Source: Minisyncoccota bacterium
GTDB lineage: Bacteria; Patescibacteriota; Minisyncoccia; Phycocordibacterales; UBA9973
NCBI GenBank assembly: GCA_041665885.1
Contig: JBAYHY010000001.1
Span: 5,715 to 69,714 of the forward strand
DNA: 64,000 nt
Direction of reading: 5' to 3'
A model generated the notes under the pieces. The model had not been told where the DNA came from, did not search any database, and saw nothing but the letters and a program-made list of their open reading frames with translations. Shown here piece by piece: positions 57,031 to 64,000 of the stretch (position 1 is the first letter of the stretch; each line of letters begins with the position of its first letter). Made by a program: the position numbers and the translations under genes.

Positions 57031-57090
57031 ACAAAAAAAGGCAATTTTTGCCCTTTTTTTATTATAACACACAAAATTCAAATTATAAAA

Positions 57091-60000
57091 CTAGGGCGCT
57101 GGTTCCGTCGGGGGTTCCGGGGCTGGGTCAGCAGGGGCTGGGTCAGCGCAAACATTATTTACAAGTACCTGTGGAGCAACACATGTCGGGACGACTGGCG
57201 CGGGATCAGTGCAGGCGCCATCTACCAGGATTTGTGGAGCGGTGCAAACAGGCACTTCGGGAGCTGGGTCTACACATACATTGTCCACCAGGACTTGTGG
57301 AGCAACACAAGCAGGGGTGATAGGGACAACGCTTCCACCACCAGCACCCACCATCGCCTCAAGGGTGTCACCATTTGCGCAGAATTCCGTACCATCCGCT
57401 TTTGCCACACAAAGCTCTTTCGTATGAACACGATTGGCAAAGAAGTCCCCTATCCCATTCGTAGCATCTGCGAGCCAGGTACCCATGTTGGCAAAGAAAG
57501 CTGTCACGAAAGATTCGGAAGTGGAACCGGGTTCAGGGATAACTGTTCCGGCAATTCCTTCCAAGTTCAAATTGAGTTCCTTCACGGCATTAACGGTCGT
57601 GGCTAAAATAGCGTTTGTATCTAGGCCATAAGGATTCCCCAAGGAGTCATGGGTGGCCAATTCCGGAGCGACGGAATTTACTTCTTCAGAAATAAATCCG
57701 AAATGAATCGCATCGCCCATATTCATGTCCGGTTTGAATGTATACGAAACAGGACGAAGAGCCATCAGATTCGCCAAGCTGTCGGACAAATCATCGATGC
57801 TGTCCTTGAAACGTTCCGATGAAGGAGTACAAATAATGTTCCCGGAAACATCCACCGAGATAGTCCCGGCCGTGGTGCATCCCGCTTGTTGGATTACTCC
57901 CGCATTCGTCACACTAAACTTACTTACCCCTCCTACCTGTGCATCAATTAAATTCCCGCTTGTCTTTGCGGTAGGGTTGATTAAAAAATCTGTGAGAGCG
58001 GAAGAATCTGCTTTTACTAAATGCAATTGTGCTGTCGGTGCTGTTATCCCGATACCGACACTGCCGTTGTTTAGAATCGTCATCGCTGTCGTTCCAGCAC
58101 TTTCTCCCACCTTTAAAATAAGGTTTGCATTGGTCAAAGTATTTCCGGTAGTATTGTTGCCCTGTAAGGTCAGGGTGCCGTTCGCCACCGTTGAACCATT
58201 GACCAATGGGTCAGTAATTGACGTCGTAAAGGTCGGAGAATTTAGACGGACAAAATTCCCAGTCCCCGTGCCCGTGTATTCCGCCGAAGTGAGGTGGTAA
58301 TATTGATCCGCACTCCCTCCCTGCAACCCTACGAGTTGATTATGACGAACAACCATCGGAGTGTGAAAGTGAGTATAATTGGCTGTTCCATTATGTACTA
58401 GGCTAACTGTCGTATTCGATGTCCTTGTTGTTCGTCCATAAAATTTAACCACCAACCTGTCTGTAGGATTAATAGCAAAGGCCGGCTGCACGGTTGTGAC
58501 TGAAGCCAAAAATACTGAGGTAGAATTAATATCTGGAGTCTCTGTCGTAAACAAAAGCGTTTCCACTCCTCCCGAGTCTCTCTTGTAAACCTCTGCCCTG
58601 ATGACTGATATTTGGACTGTGCTACTTAAATATCCATAGATGTCAAATTGCCACACTCCAGCCTCTATGGAAGTACTTCCCAACCCGAGAGGTGAAGAAG
58701 CATATGATTCAATCAACGCTGTGCTGTTGTTCACAACAACAGAATCGACAATTTGAGGAAGACTAGTCGGGGCGGGGGTCAGGGTAACGTACGACGGAAT
58801 ATCGGAGGCAGTATCGTCTAAATAAAAACTGACTCCGGCGCCACCACTTACCGTATCTGGATTTACATTCACCCAGGTACTGCCATTATATGCCAAGACC
58901 TGGTTTGCGGTGGGTGTCAGTGCCCCAACGTCGGAAAGGTTCGCTAGTCCTATTTGTGTGCCATCAATTCTAAACAAGGACCCTGACGATAAATTCAAAT
59001 CCCCCGCTACGTCTAATTTATACCCGGGTACAATTGTTCCAATCCCGACTCTATGATTTACTGAATCCACAAAAAGAGAATTAGTGTCCACCGTTAAACT
59101 ATGAGCTCCTAAATCTACATTTGAAGTTCCCCCAGTAAAAGGAACATACGAGGAGAGACTACCCGTCGTTGCGAATGCACTCGCATGATTGCCATCCAAC
59201 ATATCTGCATTAAGATTAGAAACAAGGGTAGTCGAGGCGATAGACAATGGAGCCGTACCTGTCGCTATTGCAGACTTCAAAGTATTCCCGCGCACTTCAC
59301 CAGTATCTCCATCGAGCCAGGCTGAAGAAGTAGAGCCATTGTTTGTCTCAATATGACTCGGAGTGATGAGAGAGAGATGCCCTGTCCCATCTGTATAATT
59401 CATACCGCCAAGAAAGCCCCCCAACATGAACGAAAGGTTTTGATTTTGTGTAGGATCAGATGAATCGTTGTAAGAAAGACTAATATTGTTCGTGGCTACT
59501 GTCGTAGCTTGTGTAACCGTACCAATCGTCTGTAAAAAAGTTAAATTATTCTGAGCAAGAGAAGTGTAGTCGGTACTTGGAGTTCCGAAAAATACATTGC
59601 CGGGCTTGATTGACCCGCTGGTTGTTAAATCATTTACTCCCAAATCCACATCCCCCGTCGCCCCGGTGTAAGGCACCAGGCCAGACAAATCAGGAATACT
59701 GCCAACTGGTCCCCAGGCTGTACCATTAAAATATTTGTAAGTATTGGTAGTGGTGTCGTAAGAGAGATCTCCGGCCACTCCTGTAGGCAGTGAAGCAGTA
59801 GGAAAACCTGTGCTGTTGAAATATTTTGCCGTTAGTTTGTTTCCACCCAAAGCGACATCCCCCGTCGCCCCAGTGTAATGTAAAACATCATCAGATAAAT
59901 CATGTATCGTGTCATTGATTGAATCATATATTGCAGCCACTTGATTATCAAAGAAAGATTTAGAAACAAAAGAAGATGTGTTGATGCTCCCTCCCCCCGA

Positions 60001-60339
60001 TGAACCTTGAGGGCCTGCTGGACCTACGGGACCCTGCGCGCCAGTCGGGCCGACTGGACCACGGGGACCTGTTGGACCTGAAATTCCTTGAGAACCCTGC
60101 GCGCCAGGAGCAGCAACTTGAATCACCGGAGATGGGACATTTGTTTTTATGGGCGCTATACTTGAGGGAACGACCACTTCAAACACAAATGGAGAAATGA
60201 GATTTTTATATGCATCGACTAAATATGTAAAAGGATTGAAAGCTAGGGCTGGAGTGGCAAAAGAAAAAGTGGCCGATAGAAAGAATATCGAGATTAAAAA
60301 CTTTTTTATAAATAATATAAAACTTTTCTTTTTTAACAT
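57091..60339 (-). CDS. Large secreted fibre protein: signal peptide, collagen-like GXY repeats, long beta-rich Gly/Thr/Ser/Asn stalk, C-terminal intramolecular-chaperone (peptidase S74-like) domain and Cys-containing C-terminal repeats
   Basis: 1082 aa. The N-terminus is MLKKKSFILFIKKFLISIFFLSATFSFATPALA. A GXY run follows (GAQGSQGISGPTGPRGPVGPTGAQGPVGPAGPQG). Near the C-terminus, SSERFKDSIDDL...LRPVSYTFK...HFGFISEEV matches the tail-fibre/endosialidase chaperone signature. Three C(V/T)APQ(V/I)LVD..C.DPAP repeats follow. Confidence 0.65.
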   Translation of the reverse strand: MLKKKSFILFIKKFLISIFFLSATFSFATPALAFNPFTYLVDAYKNLISPFVFEVVVPSSIAPIKTNVPSPVIQVAAPGAQGSQGISGPTGPRGPVGPTGAQGPVGPAGPQGSSGGGSINTSSFVSKSFFDNQVAAIYDSINDTIHDLSDDVLHYTGATGDVALGGNKLTAKYFNSTGFPTASLPTGVAGDLSYDTTTNTYKYFNGTAWGPVGSIPDLSGLVPYTGATGDVDLGVNDLTTSGSIKPGNVFFGTPSTDYTSLAQNNLTFLQTIGTVTQATTVATNNISLSYNDSSDPTQNQNLSFMLGGFLGGMNYTDGTGHLSLITPSHIETNNGSTSSAWLDGDTGEVRGNTLKSAIATGTAPLSIASTTLVSNLNADMLDGNHASAFATTGSLSSYVPFTGGTSNVDLGAHSLTVDTNSLFVDSVNHRVGIGTIVPGYKLDVAGDLNLSSGSLFRIDGTQIGLANLSDVGALTPTANQVLAYNGSTWVNVNPDTVSGGAGVSFYLDDTASDIPSYVTLTPAPTSLPQIVDSVVVNNSTALIESYASSPLGLGSTSIEAGVWQFDIYGYLSSTVQISVIRAEVYKRDSGGVETLLFTTETPDINSTSVFLASVTTVQPAFAINPTDRLVVKFYGRTTRTSNTTVSLVHNGTANYTHFHTPMVVRHNQLVGLQGGSADQYYHLTSAEYTGTGTGNFVRLNSPTFTTSITDPLVNGSTVANGTLTLQGNNTTGNTLTNANLILKVGESAGTTAMTILNNGSVGIGITAPTAQLHLVKADSSALTDFLINPTAKTSGNLIDAQVGGVSKFSVTNAGVIQQAGCTTAGTISVDVSGNIICTPSSERFKDSIDDLSDSLANLMALRPVSYTFKPDMNMGDAIHFGFISEEVNSVAPELATHDSLGNPYGLDTNAILATTVNAVKELNLNLEGIAGTVIPEPGSTSESFVTAFFANMGTWLADATNGIGDFFANRVHTKELCVAKADGTEFCANGDTLEAMVGAGGGSVVPITPACVAPQVLVDNVCVDPAPEVPVCTAPQILVDGACTDPAPVVPTCVAPQVLVNNVCADPAPADPAPEPPTEPAP

Positions 60340-60425
60340 CCTTTTTCCTTGCTACCACTCTCTATTATTATACAACAATTTAACACACCAAGAAAGAAAA
60401 TACGAACAAGATATGCTTATTATTT

Positions 60426-62105
60426 CTACAGCTCTTCTTGTTGGGGAGCGATAATTCTGGCTCGCCAGAACTTCGTCTTAAGCGCCTTGATTAGTTCGTT
60501 CAATTCTTCATTCTTCAACAAATACAAAACCACCACCGCAGAAATTATGCCTAAAATTCCGGAAATAAAACCCTGCAGAAAAACACCCCAGAAAGTCGTC
60601 GTGCCGAAAACCGGAGAAAGAATATTTAAACTCAAATAGCCGACCAATCCCAGGAAAAAAGAGGCACCTAAGCTTTGGAAAAAAGTCTTGGTGATAAAGG
60701 ATTCTTCCGGCATAAAATCTTTTTTCACGAAAATCCAGTGCAGAACAAAATTTAAAATGGTACCCACAGAATACGCGAGTGGGAGCATGAGCACCTCTGT
60801 ACCAGAGATGTCACTCACCTTGAGGAGGGACTCAATAAAATATCGGAAGAAAAGCCAATTTTGAAAGAGATGAATGAAGAAAAAAGATAAAATAATAATC
60901 AAAACAGAACACAGGAGGTTTACTGTGAGCGGACGCTTCGTATTGCCCGTCGCATAATACGAACGAGATAAAAGCGTAATCATCCCCTGGGCCAAGATCG
61001 AAACAGAAAATATCGCCAAACAAGCAGCGACTAAACGAGTATCATCCCAGGAAAAAGAACCGGAGCCTAAAATCACGCGCACGATTTGAGCCCGAAGCAC
61101 AATAAAAAGAAAAATAACAGGTAAGGACCAAAAAACAATCGCCCTCGATGCTTCTTTTAGGTGTATTTTGAATTCCTCTTTTTTTCCGCCACTAAAAGAT
61201 TTCGCTAACGTCGGAAAAGCGGCGACCGCATAAGATATTCCGATAATATTCAATGGAACAGACTGAAGATTGAAAGAAAAATTAAAAATCGAGATAGACC
61301 CGCTTTTCAAAAAGGAGGCGAGCGCGATAATACAGATAAGGGCAATATTGTTGAAAGCAAGCCCCATCGTTCGCGGGAGTGAAGTCATAGCAACACTTTT
61401 AATATCCTTGAAATTAACAGCAAGGGAAAATCTGGGAGTAAAACCACAGCGATGAGAAGAAAATGCCTGAATACCGAAATGCATGAGGGCGCCTAGCGCC
61501 ACCCCCATGGCCAAGCCGGAGATTCCGAAAATCGGATAGAGCAAAATAACTCCGACAATAATTCCCACATTATAAAAAATCGGACTTAAGGAATAAATAA
61601 AAAATTTGTGGAAAAGCTGAGTGACCGTCCCGAAAAGATTCGAAAGTCCCATCAATATCGGGGAAAGAAGCATTATGCGGGAAAGCAAGACGACTTTCGC
61701 TTGATAAAATGGAGTGAAACCAGGGGCAATCAAATCCGCCAAATATGGCATCAGAAAAAAAGCGAGAAGAGCAACCAAAACCATTAGAGAAAAGAAAACG
61801 GTGAAAACATCGTTCAAATATTTCCGTGCCTTGTCGGTCACCTTGTCCCCATCCATCCGAGCAACGATAAAAGGAATAATTACCGTTATCGAAGCGAGAG
61901 AAGCGATAGAAATAAAAATTAAATCCGGCACTCGAAAAGCCGCATAATAAGCATCGAGTGCGGGCGAAGGACCGATGATGTGAGCAAAAGCCCGATCACG
62001 GAAAAGTGCCAGAACCTGAGACAAAAGAGTAAAAGAACCCAAAAGAAGTGCCGCCTGATTTATGCTTCCGGATTCTTTTGTAAAAATTCTCAGTATTTTC
62101 TCCAT
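60426..62105 (-). CDS. murJ: Lipid II flippase MurJ (MviN)
   Basis: 559 aa with 14 TM segments and MurJ N-terminal motifs (ALFRDRAFAHIIG, AFRVPDLIF). Confidence 0.85.
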   Translation of the reverse strand: MEKILRIFTKESGSINQAALLLGSFTLLSQVLALFRDRAFAHIIGPSPALDAYYAAFRVPDLIFISIASLASITVIIPFIVARMDGDKVTDKARKYLNDVFTVFFSLMVLVALLAFFLMPYLADLIAPGFTPFYQAKVVLLSRIMLLSPILMGLSNLFGTVTQLFHKFFIYSLSPIFYNVGIIVGVILLYPIFGISGLAMGVALGALMHFGIQAFSSHRCGFTPRFSLAVNFKDIKSVAMTSLPRTMGLAFNNIALICIIALASFLKSGSISIFNFSFNLQSVPLNIIGISYAVAAFPTLAKSFSGGKKEEFKIHLKEASRAIVFWSLPVIFLFIVLRAQIVRVILGSGSFSWDDTRLVAACLAIFSVSILAQGMITLLSRSYYATGNTKRPLTVNLLCSVLIIILSFFFIHLFQNWLFFRYFIESLLKVSDISGTEVLMLPLAYSVGTILNFVLHWIFVKKDFMPEESFITKTFFQSLGASFFLGLVGYLSLNILSPVFGTTTFWGVFLQGFISGILGIISAVVVLYLLKNEELNELIKALKTKFWRARIIAPQQEEL

Positions 62106-62117
62106 TAGCTATGCAAT

Positions 62118-64000
62118 TTATCTTTTAGGAGCAACTTCAGCAGGAGTGGGCTCGGGGGTAGAATTAGAATTTTTTAGAGAGTCTACGTATTGAATTAAGT
62201 TCTTGTCGGTCGGCACAAGCGAAAGAGCTTTTTGCGCATAAGTAAGCGCCTCCCCGCTATTCCCTTGTTTTTTTGCTATTTGAGAAAGAATAACCAAAGC
62301 ATCGACATAATCACCCTTCAAAGACAAAGCTGCCAATGCATAATCTTTCGCTTCCTGTGTTTTCCCATCAGAAAATGCGGCGCTTGCTTGAGCAAGTTTG
62401 ATGCCCGGATTTAATGGATTAAGAAGTGACGCTGCCCCATAGGCGACAACGGCATTGCTATAAGCATCCTTGACCCCTAGGGCTCCGACTTCTTCATACA
62501 TTGAACCAAGCAATTGAGAGTTCAAATAATTTAACGGATTATAATTCACCGCCCCCTGCGCCCCGCTGATAACTTGATCAAAACTCGTCTGCAAACTTGC
62601 CTTATCCTCGTCAGAAAGATCTGCCCCCTTGTTCACTACAGATTTCAACTTCAAAAGATATATTTGAGAATATGTACGTAAGTATAAATCATTTTGATAT
62701 AGTCCAAGGGCTTTCCTTATGTTCGTTTCAGCATTGGCTTCTGTCGACGCAGACAGGGCCTTGCCGAAATACGAAACAGAAGCAAATTTTTCTATATATT
62801 TGAATGAAATGGCAATAGAAAAAACAACTAAAAGAATAAGCACCAGGATAGAGAAGAAACTTTTTCGATGATCGTTCAAAAATAGAATCGACACTTCTCG
62901 GCCAGAGCTGGAAGCGATTAATCCGATGAACACTCCGATCAGAGCGAAGGACAATAAAAACATCGTTACTCCGGTAAAATAAAAGAATGAAGAAATCAAA
63001 AGATAAATCGATAAAACAAAGAACACCATCACATCCCAATTTACTCCATTTTTTATATTAGAAAAAATTGATTTTATTCCAATAAACAAAAACAGAATAA
63101 AAAATACTAGCCAGGAAAGAATCCCAAGGCCTCCGGTCGTGGCAAAAAAGGTCGTCAATAATCCTGAACCCGAATTGAATGAAACATCCCAGAATTGGGT
63201 ATCATTAATGGAGAGTGGTTTATACATTGACCATGCTTCACTAAATCTATTTGGACCAATACCCAAGAGAGGATGTTTGACAAGTACTCCCTTCGTAATA
63301 GACATCGTCGCCCCCAAGGATGGACTTATCTCCGTATTTGAAGTGTGCAAAAGACTTGGAACAACGTCACCGAGATATCCCATACCGACTGTCGGAATAG
63401 GGACTAATGGATTTAGGAAAAATAACAGAGCGATAATAACCACCACAAAAGAAATTACCGGGAAATTTTTTCTCTTCTCTCCTCCTTCTTCATTTTTGTG
63501 AACAGTAATTGAAACTTTGTAAACAAAAATAATTAAACTGGAAATTCCAAGAAGAATCCAGACCAAAGGAAAATTCACCGCTGCCGCCAATAATATCGAA
63601 GTTAAAATAAATATTTCTAACAAAATCTTTTCTATTTTAGTAACTGAAAAAACCTCTATCACTAAAAGGAACATCAATCCGGAAAAACCCGCAAAAAGAC
63701 CCAGGGCATTCCAGGACCCGAGGACATTTCCCGTCTTATCAGCCAAAATTCCCAAGGATAAAATCTTGGGCATAAATAGATGAAATCCCTGAAAAATCAA
63801 AACGAGGGCGGAAGACAATATCGTTCCGAATAACACGATTCTTGCTTGTTTGAGAGTTCGAAAAACCACCGCAGACATAAACATCAAGACAAAACCAGAA
63901 AAAATAAACCAAAAACTCCCAATATCAAACATTGTACCAAACAGCGAAACTCCGGGTCTTCCCGAAAAAAGAGCGGACAGCAATAGAACTAAAGACACGC
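62118..64000 (-). CDS. O-antigen ligase-like (Wzy_C) polytopic membrane protein with C-terminal TPR repeats; 5' end probably beyond window
   Basis: At least 626 aa with many TM helices, then TPR-like repeats (ALGLYQNDLY..., AYGAASLL..., YALAALSL..., ALTYAQKAL). The frame is open to the window edge. Confidence 0.55.
   Translation of the reverse strand, partial: VSLVLLLSALFSGRPGVSLFGTMFDIGSFWFIFSGFVLMFMSAVVFRTLKQARIVLFGTILSSALVLIFQGFHLFMPKILSLGILADKTGNVLGSWNALGLFAGFSGLMFLLVIEVFSVTKIEKILLEIFILTSILLAAAVNFPLVWILLGISSLIIFVYKVSITVHKNEEGGEKRKNFPVISFVVVIIALLFFLNPLVPIPTVGMGYLGDVVPSLLHTSNTEISPSLGATMSITKGVLVKHPLLGIGPNRFSEAWSMYKPLSINDTQFWDVSFNSGSGLLTTFFATTGGLGILSWLVFFILFLFIGIKSIFSNIKNGVNWDVMVFFVLSIYLLISSFFYFTGVTMFLLSFALIGVFIGLIASSSGREVSILFLNDHRKSFFSILVLILLVVFSIAISFKYIEKFASVSYFGKALSASTEANAETNIRKALGLYQNDLYLRTYSQIYLLKLKSVVNKGADLSDEDKASLQTSFDQVISGAQGAVNYNPLNYLNSQLLGSMYEEVGALGVKDAYSNAVVAYGAASLLNPLNPGIKLAQASAAFSDGKTQEAKDYALAALSLKGDYVDALVILSQIAKKQGNSGEALTYAQKALSLVPTDKNLIQYVDSLKNSNSTPEPTPAEVAPKR

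What the first reader, a model, noticed from the sequence alone, without database searches (positions are those of the whole stretch)
57091..60339. Stand-alone 1082-aa phage-tail-fibre-like surface protein: collagen GXY repeats, beta-rich stalk, C-terminal intramolecular chaperone domain plus Cys-loop repeats
The domain order is: signal peptide, ~20 GXY triplets, a long Gly/Thr/Ser/Asn stalk typical of tail fibres or tailspikes, then a C-terminal block with the hallmark of the peptidase S74 intramolecular chaperone of phage tail spikes. That block reads SSERFKDSIDDL...LRPVSYTFK...FGFISEEV; cleavage would be expected before the conserved Ser.

No other phage genes are adjacent: the neighbours are an ABC exporter and murJ. 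Unusually, three Cys-containing repeats (C-APQ-LVD--C-DPAP-) follow the chaperone domain; these would be released if autoproteolysis occurs. In a reduced, possibly episymbiotic bacterium such a domesticated fibre is a candidate host-attachment adhesin.
Basis: partly seen in the sequence, partly recalled or inferred. Interest (0 to 1): 0.7.

Follow-up and report, generated by a model that had tools for sequence, protein, structure and literature searches.

The report
Phage-type surface fibre of a CPR bacterium
This gene in a tiny, probably symbiotic "candidate phyla radiation" bacterium encodes an exported fibre built from phage tail-fibre parts, and it belongs to a large, fast-changing family found here almost only in those bacteria that may be how they grip other cells.

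Summary
The ORF (57091-60339, minus strand, 1082 aa) is real and the described domain order holds. It runs: signal-peptide-like N-terminus, 13 (not ~20) GXY triplets, Gly/Thr/Ser/Asn shaft, Peptidase_S74 chaperone above Pfam's cutoff with Ser840/Lys845, then three Cys hairpins.

It is not a prophage gene. All annotated neighbours are housekeeping genes, codon usage is native, and a related genome has a very different fibre at the same position.

New findings:
- A central beta-sandwich (aa ~502-664) has a carbohydrate-binding-module-like fold. It is up to 53% identical to proteins on viral contigs.
- The Cys hairpins are the tail of a conserved ~150-aa extension after S74. No Pfam model or solved structure matches it.
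- That extension occurs in 1,945 protein clusters. It was confirmed at 51 genome loci, almost all Patescibacteria and often several per genome, and on none of 2.9 million viral contigs.

The closest characterised relatives are the Bdellovibrio MAT-S74 prey-recognition fibres, but the defining MAT N-terminal domain is absent. NCBI already names the protein "tail fiber domain-containing protein".

Best reading: a Sec-exported, self-cleaving trimeric surface fibre, probably an adhesin. Cleavage, surface location and binding are inferred. This is a new variant of a known kind.

The parts
60241..60339 (-). aa 1-33: Sec-type signal peptide or signal anchor (MLKKKSFILFIKK / FLISIFFLSATFSFA / TPALA|F)
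   Evidence: Hydrophobic 15-mer with KD 2.32 and an AxA site. All 13 complete family ORFs have such an N-terminus, against 1 of 13 phage proteins that share the central domain. Cleavage versus retention as a membrane anchor was not determined.
60106..60240 (-). aa 34-78: conserved mature N-terminus (FNPFTYLVDAYKNL...) plus a Pro/Val-rich linker; candidate docking segment
   Evidence: The same A[LF]A|FNP[FI]TY leader occurs in P0008 and P0009, and L036 also begins ...FSYATPALAFNP. A second conserved leader type, FA|VW[DN]GxFYxPGxTLNPEC, occurs in 22 members. The docking role is inferred.
59989..60105 (-). aa 79-117: collagen-like segment, 13 uninterrupted GXY triplets
   Evidence: Regex count. 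Pfam Collagen scores 20.2 bits, below its 27.2 cutoff. Weak matches to collagen model peptides and BclA in the PDB.
58948..59988 (-). aa 118-464: fibre shaft, with three Y-T/F-G-x-T-x-x-V-x-L-G-x-x-x-L-T repeats (aa ~155-170, 224-239, 401-416) and the first capping loop VGIGTIVPGYKLDV (aa 431-444)
   Evidence: DNA repeat family D1. The YTGGTSNVDLG..LTVDTNSLFVDSVNHRVGIGT block is shared with about 45 of the 120 hits. The capping loop fits the MAT/S74 consensus V-G-G/N-pi-x-x-P-x-x-x-L and aligns to Bd3182, PDB 8OJN.
58225..58947 (-). aa 465-705: central module. The core, aa 502-664, is a jelly-roll beta-sandwich (window 58348-58836). It is followed by the conserved connector HNQLVGLQGGSADQYYHLTSAEYTGTGTGNF
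57823..58224 (-). aa 706-839: distal fibre segment with the second capping loop VGIGITAPTAQLHL (aa 761-774) and the Cys821/Cys837 pair; the predicted tip after cleavage
   Evidence: The best PDB sequence match of the whole protein is here: Bd3182/8OJN to query aa 746-795, whole-sequence E 0.017 and stretch E 0.26. The motif is defined in PMC10769870. The GCTTAGT..SG.IICT hairpin is conserved in close relatives. No structure was predicted for this segment.
57550..57822 (-). aa 840-930: Peptidase_S74 intramolecular chaperone domain with S840 and K845 (motif S-S-E-R-F-K); predicted self-cleavage between P839 and S840
   Evidence: Pfam PF13884, E 3e-10, above the gathering score. S840 and K845 are invariant in 26 members, and S[DSN]xxxK is present in 107 of 121. 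The profile hits 8JOV, 6F45, 7DC3, 8HQZ and 3GUD. Model pLDDT is 84-95, and Foldseek finds MyRF ICA at E 6e-5. Cleavage itself is inferred.
57340..57549 (-). aa 931-1000: family-specific post-S74 extension, made of an ESFVTAFF...WLADATNGIGDFFA helical segment and a Cys977/Cys987 beta-hairpin plus helix (LCV..C..G..LEAM)
   Evidence: Conserved across the family, with C977 and C987 invariant. The hairpin-helix unit is present in 109 of 121 members. The profile hits 1,945 50%-identity clusters, always near the C-terminus. It was confirmed at 51 genome loci, nearly all Patescibacteria, and on no viral contig. There is no Pfam match and no PDB match. The hairpin has pLDDT ~88 and the helices 53-64.
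57094..57339 (-). aa 1001-1082: Pro-rich tail with three Cys beta-hairpins (C-[VT]-A-P-Q-[VI]-L-V-[DN]-[NG]-[VA]-C-x-D-P-A-P)
   Evidence: Cys positions. DNA repeats D2 and D3 are 75-78% identical. AlphaFold predicts three beta-hairpins with pLDDT 84-93. The same hairpin occurs in P0002, P0008, P0039, P0128 and others, but in only 19 of 121 members.
60340..60425 (-). 86-nt intergenic region upstream of the fibre gene, with a TGTATAAT (extended -10-like) element and an AAGGA ribosome-binding site
   Evidence: Read directly from the upstream sequence printed. The consensus scan did not list a full -35/-10 pair here, so this is weak evidence only.

Best explanation
The gene encodes a cell-surface trimeric fibre of a Paceibacterota (CPR/Patescibacteria) bacterium. 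It is assembled from phage tail-fibre modules but adapted for export.

Proposed mechanism, with each step marked as shown or inferred:
1. The N-terminal signal sequence takes the chain through Sec. The sequence features are shown. Export is inferred.
2. Outside the membrane, the C-terminal S74 intramolecular chaperone brings three chains together. It nucleates folding from the C-terminus towards the N-terminus, through the beta-helical tip, the central beta-sandwich, the shaft and the 13-triplet collagen segment. This is inferred from the known S74 mechanism in endosialidase, phage T5 and Bdellovibrio Bd3182.
3. Ser840 and Lys845 then cut the chain between P839 and S840. This releases a 243-aa fragment that holds the chaperone, the family-specific extension and the Cys hairpins, and it exposes the fibre tip. 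The motif is shown and invariant. Cleavage is inferred.
4. The mature ~806-aa fibre stays on the cell, either through the uncleaved signal anchor or through the conserved short N-terminal motif. This is inferred and is the weakest step.
5. The fibre binds a glycan or surface structure on another cell through the CBM-like central domain and/or the exposed tip. The fold is shown. Binding is inferred.

The conserved post-S74 extension has invariant Cys pairs, which points to an oxidising, extracytoplasmic setting. It occurs only in the signal-bearing cellular versions and was not found on viral contigs. It is therefore most likely an adaptation that lets a phage-type fibre fold outside the cytoplasm, for example by keeping the three C-termini together or tethered in the wall until cleavage.

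Family members are multi-copy and highly mosaic, and they share body modules with phages. That is the pattern expected of a variable recognition repertoire.
For: Architecture and S74:
- Searches give the ORF, the Pfam hit and the residue positions.
- S840, K845, C977 and C987 are invariant in 26 members.
- the profile hits phage fibre chaperones and MyRF.
- the model is confident and matches MyRF ICA and, more weakly, endoNF.
- Bd3182 self-cleaves at the Ser of SDxxxK, and the S782A mutant stays uncleaved (PMC10769870).
- the capping-loop motif is shared with Bd3182.

Cellular rather than phage:
- the annotated neighbours within ~11 kb on one side and 3.7 kb on the other are housekeeping genes. 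The rest of the window was not annotated, and one search finds no second fibre copy in it.
- the positional orthologue P0008 lies upstream of the same ABC-LepA-DivIC-2HADH-glycerate kinase-enolase-PPDK block.
- in L032 a MurJ that is 86% identical is followed by a 2484-aa fibre that matches the query only at aa 784-997.
- other members sit among housekeeping genes.
- the fibre's GC3 of 0.41 lies within the neighbours' 0.33-0.46.
- a signal-like N-terminus occurs in 13 of 13 complete family ORFs and in 1 of 13 phage proteins.

Family size and range:
- 1,945 50%-identity clusters carry the extension.
- 51 genome loci, nearly all Patescibacteria, with up to 5 per genome.
- none on viral contigs.

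Recognition role:
- the central domain has a CBM/galactose-binding-like jelly-roll fold, also seen in the Bd2734 fibre tip and in phage fibre proteins.
- the domain is shared with phage structural proteins.
Against: - No experiment or omics data were examined. Export, trimerisation, cleavage, surface retention and binding are all inferred.
- The structure predictions were monomeric, so the trimer was not modelled.
- The putative binding domain lies mid-fibre rather than at the tip. The tip (aa 706-839) was not modelled.
- No recognised anchor is present: no LPXTG, no C-terminal TM segment, no MAT N-terminal domain.
- If the signal peptide is cleaved, only ~45 residues precede the collagen segment, so how the fibre stays on the cell is unexplained.
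- The lifestyle of this Paceibacterota organism, episymbiotic or not, is unknown.
- The role proposed for the extension rests on distribution and Cys conservation alone. Its WLADA helices are poorly predicted (pLDDT 53-64).
- The viral-contig scan used only short back-translated patterns, so divergent viral copies of the extension could have been missed.
Confidence: 0.6

Rival explanations
1. The protein is a surface fibre, but not a host-attachment adhesin. It could be a structural or protective envelope component (a fibrillar coat or an S-layer-associated spacer), a means of cell-cell aggregation among its own kind, or a decoy or shield against phages that use similar modules.
For: Fibre genes recur beside cell-envelope genes, namely MurJ and a multi-pass TPR membrane protein. 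There are several copies per genome. Nothing here shows binding to another organism. Module sharing with phages would also fit a phage-interaction role.
Against: Positional orthologues are extremely mosaic while the flanking genes stay 60-86% identical. That is typical of recognition proteins and not of structural ones. The CBM-like domain and the precedent of Bdellovibrio MAT fibres point to binding. Some paralogues carry depolymerase-type domains, which suggests action on foreign surfaces.
Confidence: 0.2
2. The gene is an ordinary phage gene: a tail-fibre gene left behind by a decayed prophage, or part of a tailocin or contractile injection system.
For: Most modules (collagen, the central beta-sandwich, the shaft and capping-loop region, S74) have phage homologues. 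NCBI names the protein 'tail fiber domain-containing protein'. The window ends 3.7 kb past the gene, so that side is not fully seen.
Against: No phage gene was found among the annotated neighbours. The same is true in the 10-kb flanks of three relatives, apart from IS200-type transposases around P0002. The protein has a Sec-type signal, unlike 12 of 13 phage proteins with the same central domain. Codon usage is native. A different fibre occupies the same syntenic slot in a related genome. The family-specific extension is absent from 2.9 million viral contigs but was confirmed at 51 genome loci.
Confidence: 0.04
3. The protein is a secreted or surface tailspike-like enzyme (a polysaccharide depolymerase) rather than a binding fibre, as in the endosialidases where S74 was first described.
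Confidence: 0.08
4. The C-terminal extension is a secretion signal for the adjacent ABC exporter, which would make the fibre a type-I-like secretion substrate.
For: An MsbA/HlyB-like ABC exporter starts 9 nt downstream, with no terminator in between. The same adjacency is seen for P0008. Type I substrates carry C-terminal signals.
Against: The protein has a classical N-terminal Sec signal. The ABC adjacency is confined to close relatives that share the whole syntenic block. It is absent at other family loci, for example grpE-dnaK or IS200 flanks. In L017 and L024, MurJ lies between the fibre and ABC genes. The exporter scores below every curated NCBIfam cutoff, and its best hits are MsbA-type models.
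Confidence: 0.03

Closest known systems
Bdellovibrio bacteriovorus MAT (mosaic adhesive trimer) fibres, S74 subgroup, e.g. Bd3182 (PDB 8OJN/8ONB/8ONC; Caulton et al. 2024, PMC10769870)
   Different: The invariant ~130-aa beta-rich MAT N-terminal domain is missing: only ~45 residues lie between the signal peptide and the collagen segment. This protein adds a collagen-like segment and a conserved ~150-aa post-S74 extension with Cys hairpins. The MAT paper's text does not mention collagen. The host is a Gram-positive-like CPR cell without an outer membrane. Sequence similarity is limited to short motifs (whole-sequence E 0.017).
Phage tail fibres and tailspikes with a C-terminal intramolecular chaperone domain (K1F endosialidase 3GW6, T5 pb1 4UW8/8HQZ, S16 gp37 6F45, phi29 gp12 3GUD), and environmental Caudovirales proteins that combine collagen, this beta-sandwich and S74
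   Same: The S74 domain and its catalytic motif are shared. The collagen-like segment and the central beta-sandwich are shared, the latter at up to 53% identity over 247 aa with proteins on viral contigs. The overall logic is a trimeric fibre matured by C-terminal self-cleavage.
   Different: The phage proteins lack a signal peptide (12 of 13) and lack the post-S74 extension. They lie in virion structural modules. This gene lies among housekeeping genes.
Myelin regulatory factor (MyRF) ICA domain (PDB 7DC3)
   Same: It is the best structural match of the C-terminal model (Foldseek E 6e-5) and a profile hit. It is another case of a cellular protein using the phage S74 domain for trimerisation and self-cleavage.
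   Different: MyRF is a eukaryotic membrane-bound transcription factor. Cleavage releases its N-terminal part to the nucleus. There is no fibre, collagen segment or extension in common.
Bacterial collagen-like surface proteins (Scl1/Scl2, BclA, Lcl)
   Same: Both have a short GXY triple-helix-type segment in an exported surface protein. There are weak NCBIfam and PDB matches.
   Different: Scores are far below the family cutoffs (about 19 bits against 325-400). There is no LPXTG anchor and no BclA C1q-like tip. The collagen part is only 39 of 1082 residues.

Membership tests
Peptidase S74 / C-terminal intramolecular chaperone domain (Pfam PF13884) | Match to the family HMM above the curated gathering score | tested here: met
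   40.7 bits against GA 22, E 3e-10, aa 840-894. The family profile hits the chaperone domains of 8JOV, 6F45, 7DC3, 8HQZ and 3GUD.
Peptidase S74 / C-terminal intramolecular chaperone domain (Pfam PF13884) | Catalytic Ser-Lys dyad in an S-D-x-x-x-K motif at the start of the domain | tested here: met
   S840-S-E-R-F-K845, with Asp replaced by Ser as in P0002 and P0109. The Ser and Lys are invariant in 26 relatives. The motif is as defined in PMC10769870.
Peptidase S74 / C-terminal intramolecular chaperone domain (Pfam PF13884) | Chaperone fold: a beta-rich start followed by a long C-terminal helix that forms the trimeric bundle | tested here: met
   The AlphaFold model has pLDDT 84-95 over aa 844-924 with a 23-residue helix. 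Foldseek finds MyRF ICA 7DC3 at E 6e-5, and endoNF 3GW6 only at E 0.03. Only a monomer was modelled.
Peptidase S74 / C-terminal intramolecular chaperone domain (Pfam PF13884) | Autoproteolytic release of the domain after trimer folding | not testable with these tools
   Needs expression of the wild type and an S840A mutant, or proteomics.
Bdellovibrio-type MAT fibres (PMC10769870) | Conserved ~130-aa beta-rich N-terminal domain immediately after the signal peptide (present in all 21 MATs) | tested here: not met
   Only ~45 residues (aa 34-78) lie between the predicted signal peptide and the collagen run. No MAT N-domain sequence was available for a direct comparison, so this rests on length and on the domain order.
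Bdellovibrio-type MAT fibres (PMC10769870) | Capping-loop motif V-G-G/N-pi-x-x-P-x-x-x-L on a trimeric beta-helical fibre | tested here: met
   VGIGTIVPGYKL (aa 431-442) and VGIGITAPTAQL (aa 761-772).
Bdellovibrio-type MAT fibres (PMC10769870) | Multi-paralogue family with exchangeable tip or body domains | tested here: met
   Up to 5 loci in one Nomurabacteria genome. Complete ORFs are 861-2484 aa, and one contig-truncated ORF exceeds 2822 aa, with different bodies. Positional orthologues share only the C-terminal module.
Bdellovibrio-type MAT fibres (PMC10769870) | Surface display and a role in recognising another cell | not testable with these tools
   No cultured host-symbiont system or omics data were examined.
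Phage virion tail fibre / prophage gene | Located within a phage structural gene module | tested here: not met
   The neighbours are the TPR membrane protein, MurJ, ABC exporter, LepA, DivIC, 2-HADH, glycerate kinase, enolase and PPDK. Relatives also sit in housekeeping contexts.
Phage virion tail fibre / prophage gene | Cytoplasmic assembly, hence no secretion signal | tested here: not met
   The query has a signal-like N-terminus (KD 2.32 and an AxA site). So do 13 of 13 complete family ORFs, against 1 of 13 phage proteins.
Bacterial collagen-like adhesins (Scl/BclA/Lcl; Pfam Collagen PF01391) | HMM score above the curated cutoff, and an LPXTG or exosporium-type anchor | tested here: not met
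   Collagen scores 20.2 against 27.2 bits. SclA/SclB score ~19 against 325-400 bits. No LPXTG was seen in the sequence.
Trimeric autotransporter adhesins (the name JGI gives to homologues P0003 and P0060) | C-terminal YadA-type beta-barrel membrane anchor | tested here: not met
   No YadA anchor or other TAA domain was found in Pfam at E<=1. The C-terminus is S74, the extension and a Pro-rich tail.

The most novel reading that the evidence does not exclude
Paceibacteria-type CPR bacteria carry a large, private repertoire of Sec-exported phage-type fibres that serves as their main system for recognising host or partner cells. The repertoire is kept variable by swapping receptor-binding modules with phages. 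The conserved post-S74 extension (WLADA helices, a disulfide hairpin-helix, and optional Cys hairpins in a Pro-rich tail) is a previously undescribed module. It lets the phage intramolecular chaperone work outside the cytoplasm, for example by tethering or clustering the three C-termini in the cell wall until self-cleavage.
Probability: 0.3. Interest if true: 0.8.

Novelty: new variant of a known kind. Interest (0 to 1): 0.55.

Why it matters
How ultrasmall CPR/Patescibacteria find and hold their partner cells is largely unknown. A 2025 study of Saccharibacteria type IV pili says so in its abstract (PMC12206443, listed).

If these fibres are adhesins, they would be the CPR counterpart of the Bdellovibrio MAT prey-recognition fibres. 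There are about 2,000 sequence clusters, several copies per small genome, extreme mosaicism and body modules shared with phages. They would also be a handle for predicting host range from genomes.

The family also shows a phage self-cleaving chaperone re-used for folding outside the cell. It comes with an added conserved module that has no Pfam model and no solved structure.

On the practical side, 30 of 51 loci have the gene cut by a contig end. Repertoires are therefore probably under-counted in CPR metagenome-assembled genomes.

Tried and rejected
- Looked up the source contig of the exact protein to see beyond the window end. There is no record, and an exact 80-mer from the window end has no match in metagenome contigs (after a server failure). 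So whether a second fibre gene lies upstream of the TPR-membrane gene, as in L017, L026 and L043, is unknown.
- Searched with the N-terminal leader (aa 1-78). No candidates were found.
- Literature searches for Patescibacteria or CPR together with tail fiber, S74 or chaperone of endosialidase found no paper describing this family. The MAT paper's supplement lists S74-type fibres from other predators and symbionts, but none from CPR.
- The first genome scan, with the 11-sequence extension alignment, failed for lack of a conserved stretch. A 5-sequence alignment worked. The same happened for the central domain (one search failed, worked).
- Considered a type-I secretion link to the adjacent ABC exporter. 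Rejected because the protein has a Sec signal and the linkage is not family-wide.
- Considered recent horizontal acquisition. GC3 is native and the raised GC lies at codon position 2.
- Considered the collagen-adhesin and trimeric-autotransporter labels given to homologues. Rejected on the family criteria.
- Not examined: diversity-generating retroelements, glycosylation by the neighbouring TPR membrane protein, and a structure for the shaft and tip (aa 118-464 and 706-839).

Full report
**1. The observation**

The ORF at 57091..60339 on the minus strand is real: it starts with ATG and is 1082 aa long.

- The N-terminus is MLKKKSFILFIKKFLISIFFLSATFSFATPALA|FNP. It has a Lys-rich start, a hydrophobic 15-mer (Kyte-Doolittle 2.32) and an AxA site.
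- The uninterrupted GXY run is 13 triplets (aa 79-117), not about 20. Pfam Collagen scores 20.2 bits, below its cutoff of 27.2.
- The body is rich in Gly, Thr, Ser and Asn and has very few charged residues.
- Peptidase_S74 is found at aa 840-894 with 40.7 bits against a gathering score of 22.
- Cys residues lie at 821/837 and 977/987, and in three repeats at 1011/1022, 1032/1043 and 1053/1064. The DNA copies of those repeats are 75-78% identical.
- A tblastn search of the protein against the window finds no other copy.

**2. Not a prophage gene**

- In transcription order the neighbours are a multi-pass membrane protein with C-terminal TPRs, MurJ, the fibre, an MsbA-like ABC exporter (9-nt gap), LepA, DivIC, a 2-hydroxyacid dehydrogenase, glycerate kinase, enolase and PPDK.
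- The gene's GC3 is 0.41, inside the neighbours' range of 0.33-0.46. Its higher overall GC comes from codon position 2, which reflects amino-acid composition.
- The exact protein is in NCBI as [quoted passage not shown].
- A related Paceibacterota contig has a 1673-aa fibre (P0008) directly upstream of the same ABC-LepA-DivIC-2HADH-glycerate kinase-enolase-PPDK block. It has the same N-terminal leader but is only 32% identical, and only over the C-terminal quarter.
- In another relative (L032), a MurJ that is 86% identical is followed by a 2484-aa fibre that matches the query only at aa 784-997, at 60% identity.
- Other members sit between grpE and dnaK, or between two IS200-type transposase genes among housekeeping genes.

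**3. What the modules are**

- *S74 domain.* The motif is S840-S-E-R-F-K845. The Ser and Lys are invariant in a 26-member alignment, and an S[DSN]xxxK motif is present in 107 of 121 members. A family profile hits the chaperone domains of solved phage tail fibres (8JOV, 6F45, 8HQZ), MyRF (7DC3) and the phi29 appendage (3GUD). The hits cover profile positions 8-115 only. The AlphaFold model of aa 815-1082 is confident for this part (pLDDT 84-95). Its best Foldseek matches are MyRF ICA (E 6e-5) and, much more weakly, endoNF CIMCD (E 0.03).
- *Capping loops.* VGIGTIVPGYKL (aa 431-442) and VGIGITAPTAQL (aa 761-772) fit the V-G-G/N-pi-x-x-P-x-x-x-L motif described for Bdellovibrio MAT fibres and MyRF. 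They produce the best PDB sequence hit of the whole protein, Bd3182/8OJN, although that hit is weak (E 0.017).

**4. The post-S74 extension and the family it defines**

- the S74 helix (ELNLNLEGI);
- an ESFxxxFF...WLADAxNGIxxxFA segment;
- an LC[VI]...C.T..QL..LL unit with two invariant Cys (C977 and C987);
- a Pro-rich tail that sometimes carries CxxxQxLV[DN]xxC hairpins.

AlphaFold predicts the Cys unit as a beta-hairpin plus helix (pLDDT ~88) and the three terminal repeats as beta-hairpins (pLDDT 84-93). The WLADA helices are uncertain, at pLDDT 53-64. Pfam has no model for this region, and no solved structure matches it by sequence or fold.

A profile of the extension alone finds 1,945 clusters at 50% identity, 713 of them at E<=1e-10. 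The match is always near the C-terminus, in proteins of up to 5,111 aa. In one-genome-per-species contigs, 51 loci were confirmed:

- Almost all are in Paceibacterota, Nomurabacteria, Zambryskibacteria, Kaiserbacteria, Minisyncoccia or other Patescibacteria.
- One genome has up to five loci.
- Two exceptions lie on short, probably mis-binned contigs.
- Thirty of the 51 ORFs are cut by a contig end.

The same alignment, with a near-identical WLAD pattern, confirmed nothing in 2.9 million viral contigs.

All 13 complete family ORFs have a signal-like N-terminus, against 1 of 13 phage proteins that share the central domain. The hairpin-helix unit is present in 109 of 121 members.

**5. Mechanism**

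*Shown:* the sequence features, the folds, the conservation, the genomic context and the distribution.

*Inferred:*
- The chain is exported through Sec.
- It is trimerised from its C-terminus by the S74 chaperone.
- It folds into a fibre made of a collagen segment, a shaft, a CBM-like domain and a beta-helical tip.
- It cuts itself between P839 and S840. Bd3182 cuts at its SDxxxK Ser and is blocked by a Ser-to-Ala change.
- This releases a 243-aa fragment and leaves an ~806-aa fibre on the cell.

The invariant Cys pairs fit an extracytoplasmic, oxidising location. The extension occurs only in the signal-bearing cellular versions. My proposal, by inference, is that the extension adapts the phage chaperone to folding outside the cell.

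The weakest step is retention on the cell. There is no LPXTG motif, no C-terminal TM segment and no MAT N-terminal domain. There are only the signal anchor itself and a short conserved mature N-terminus. Two leader types exist in the family.

A binding role is suggested by the CBM-like fold, by the extreme mosaicism within a conserved neighbourhood, and by the MAT precedent. It is not shown.

**6. Comparison with what is known**

The protein is a member of the S74 domain family: the HMM, motif and fold criteria are met, and cleavage is untested.

It works like a Bdellovibrio MAT-S74 fibre but is not a member of that family as defined. The invariant ~130-aa N-terminal domain is absent. A collagen segment and the post-S74 extension are added.

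It is not a virion fibre (wrong context, and it has a signal peptide). It is not a collagen adhesin of the Scl or BclA type, and it is not a trimeric autotransporter.

I found no paper in the searchable library that describes this CPR family. The absence of a paper there is not proof that none exists.

**7. Verdict**

The gene is one member of a very large, mosaic family of exported fibres, found here almost only in Patescibacteria, built from phage modules and ending in a distinctive, uncharacterised extension.

This is a new variant of a known kind. Interest is moderate to good: the single protein is already annotated and its core domains are known. The family-level picture, however, bears on the open question of how CPR bacteria recognise partner cells.

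Noticed in passing
window 60426-63998; loci L017, L024, L026, L032, L039, L041, L043, L052: Fibre genes of this family recur next to the TPR-membrane protein / MurJ / MsbA-like ABC / LepA block. In L017, L026 and L043 a fibre gene lies just upstream of the TPR-membrane gene, which is exactly where the window ends. A second fibre gene may therefore lie just outside the window.
   Followed up: partly
window 62118-63998 (-): A 626-aa multi-pass membrane protein with C-terminal TPR repeats. Pfam and NCBIfam recognise only the TPR part. It is conserved (60-78% identity) beside MurJ in relatives. Its function is unknown, and an envelope or glycan-related role is only a guess.
   Followed up: partly
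L053 (contig DAHWPP010000003.1) 9241-15804: Family member P0002 (1533 aa) is bracketed by two IS200-type Y1 transposase genes. This hints that some fibre genes may move as IS-flanked units.
   Followed up: no
L054/L055, gene at L054 9398-14257: Family member P0039 (1619 aa) lies between grpE and dnaK-dnaJ, with a small PaaX_M-domain gene on the opposite strand between it and dnaK. This is an unusual place for a large surface-protein gene.
   Followed up: no
L001-L051: Thirty of the 51 genome loci have the fibre ORF cut at its 5' side by a contig end. These genes systematically break short-read assemblies, so copy numbers in CPR MAGs are probably underestimated.
   Followed up: partly
proteins P0009, P0011, P0069: Some paralogues carry enzyme-type domains, namely PF12708 pectate-lyase-like and PF13088 BNR/sialidase, ahead of the S74 domain. 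These look like tailspike-like depolymerase versions of the family.
   Followed up: no
N-termini of 22 family members (e.g. L001, L037, P0128): A second leader type has a highly conserved mature N-terminus, FA|VW[DN]GxFYxPGxTLNPEC[LS]P. It differs from the query's A[LF]A|FNP[FI]TY type. Both look like short docking motifs.
   Followed up: partly
window 57061-57089 (-): A promoter-like site, TTTATA-17-TATAAT with an upstream TG, lies on the minus strand immediately downstream of the fibre stop codon and overlaps the annotated start of the ABC exporter ORF. No terminator-like site lies between the two genes on that strand.
   Followed up: no
L073 (IMGVR_UViG_3300041955_000266): This is the only 'viral' protein with the central domain that has a signal-peptide-like N-terminus (MFSLRSISIRVFVMLAALAACRPAVAQ). 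The contig may be cellular or a prophage border.
   Followed up: no
L018 (Fibrobacter sp. bin) and L023 (Bacteroidetes bin): These are the only two non-Patescibacteria labels among the 51 loci that carry the extension. Both are short contigs (5.7 and 8.1 kb) made almost entirely of the fibre gene, so mis-binning is likely.
   Followed up: no
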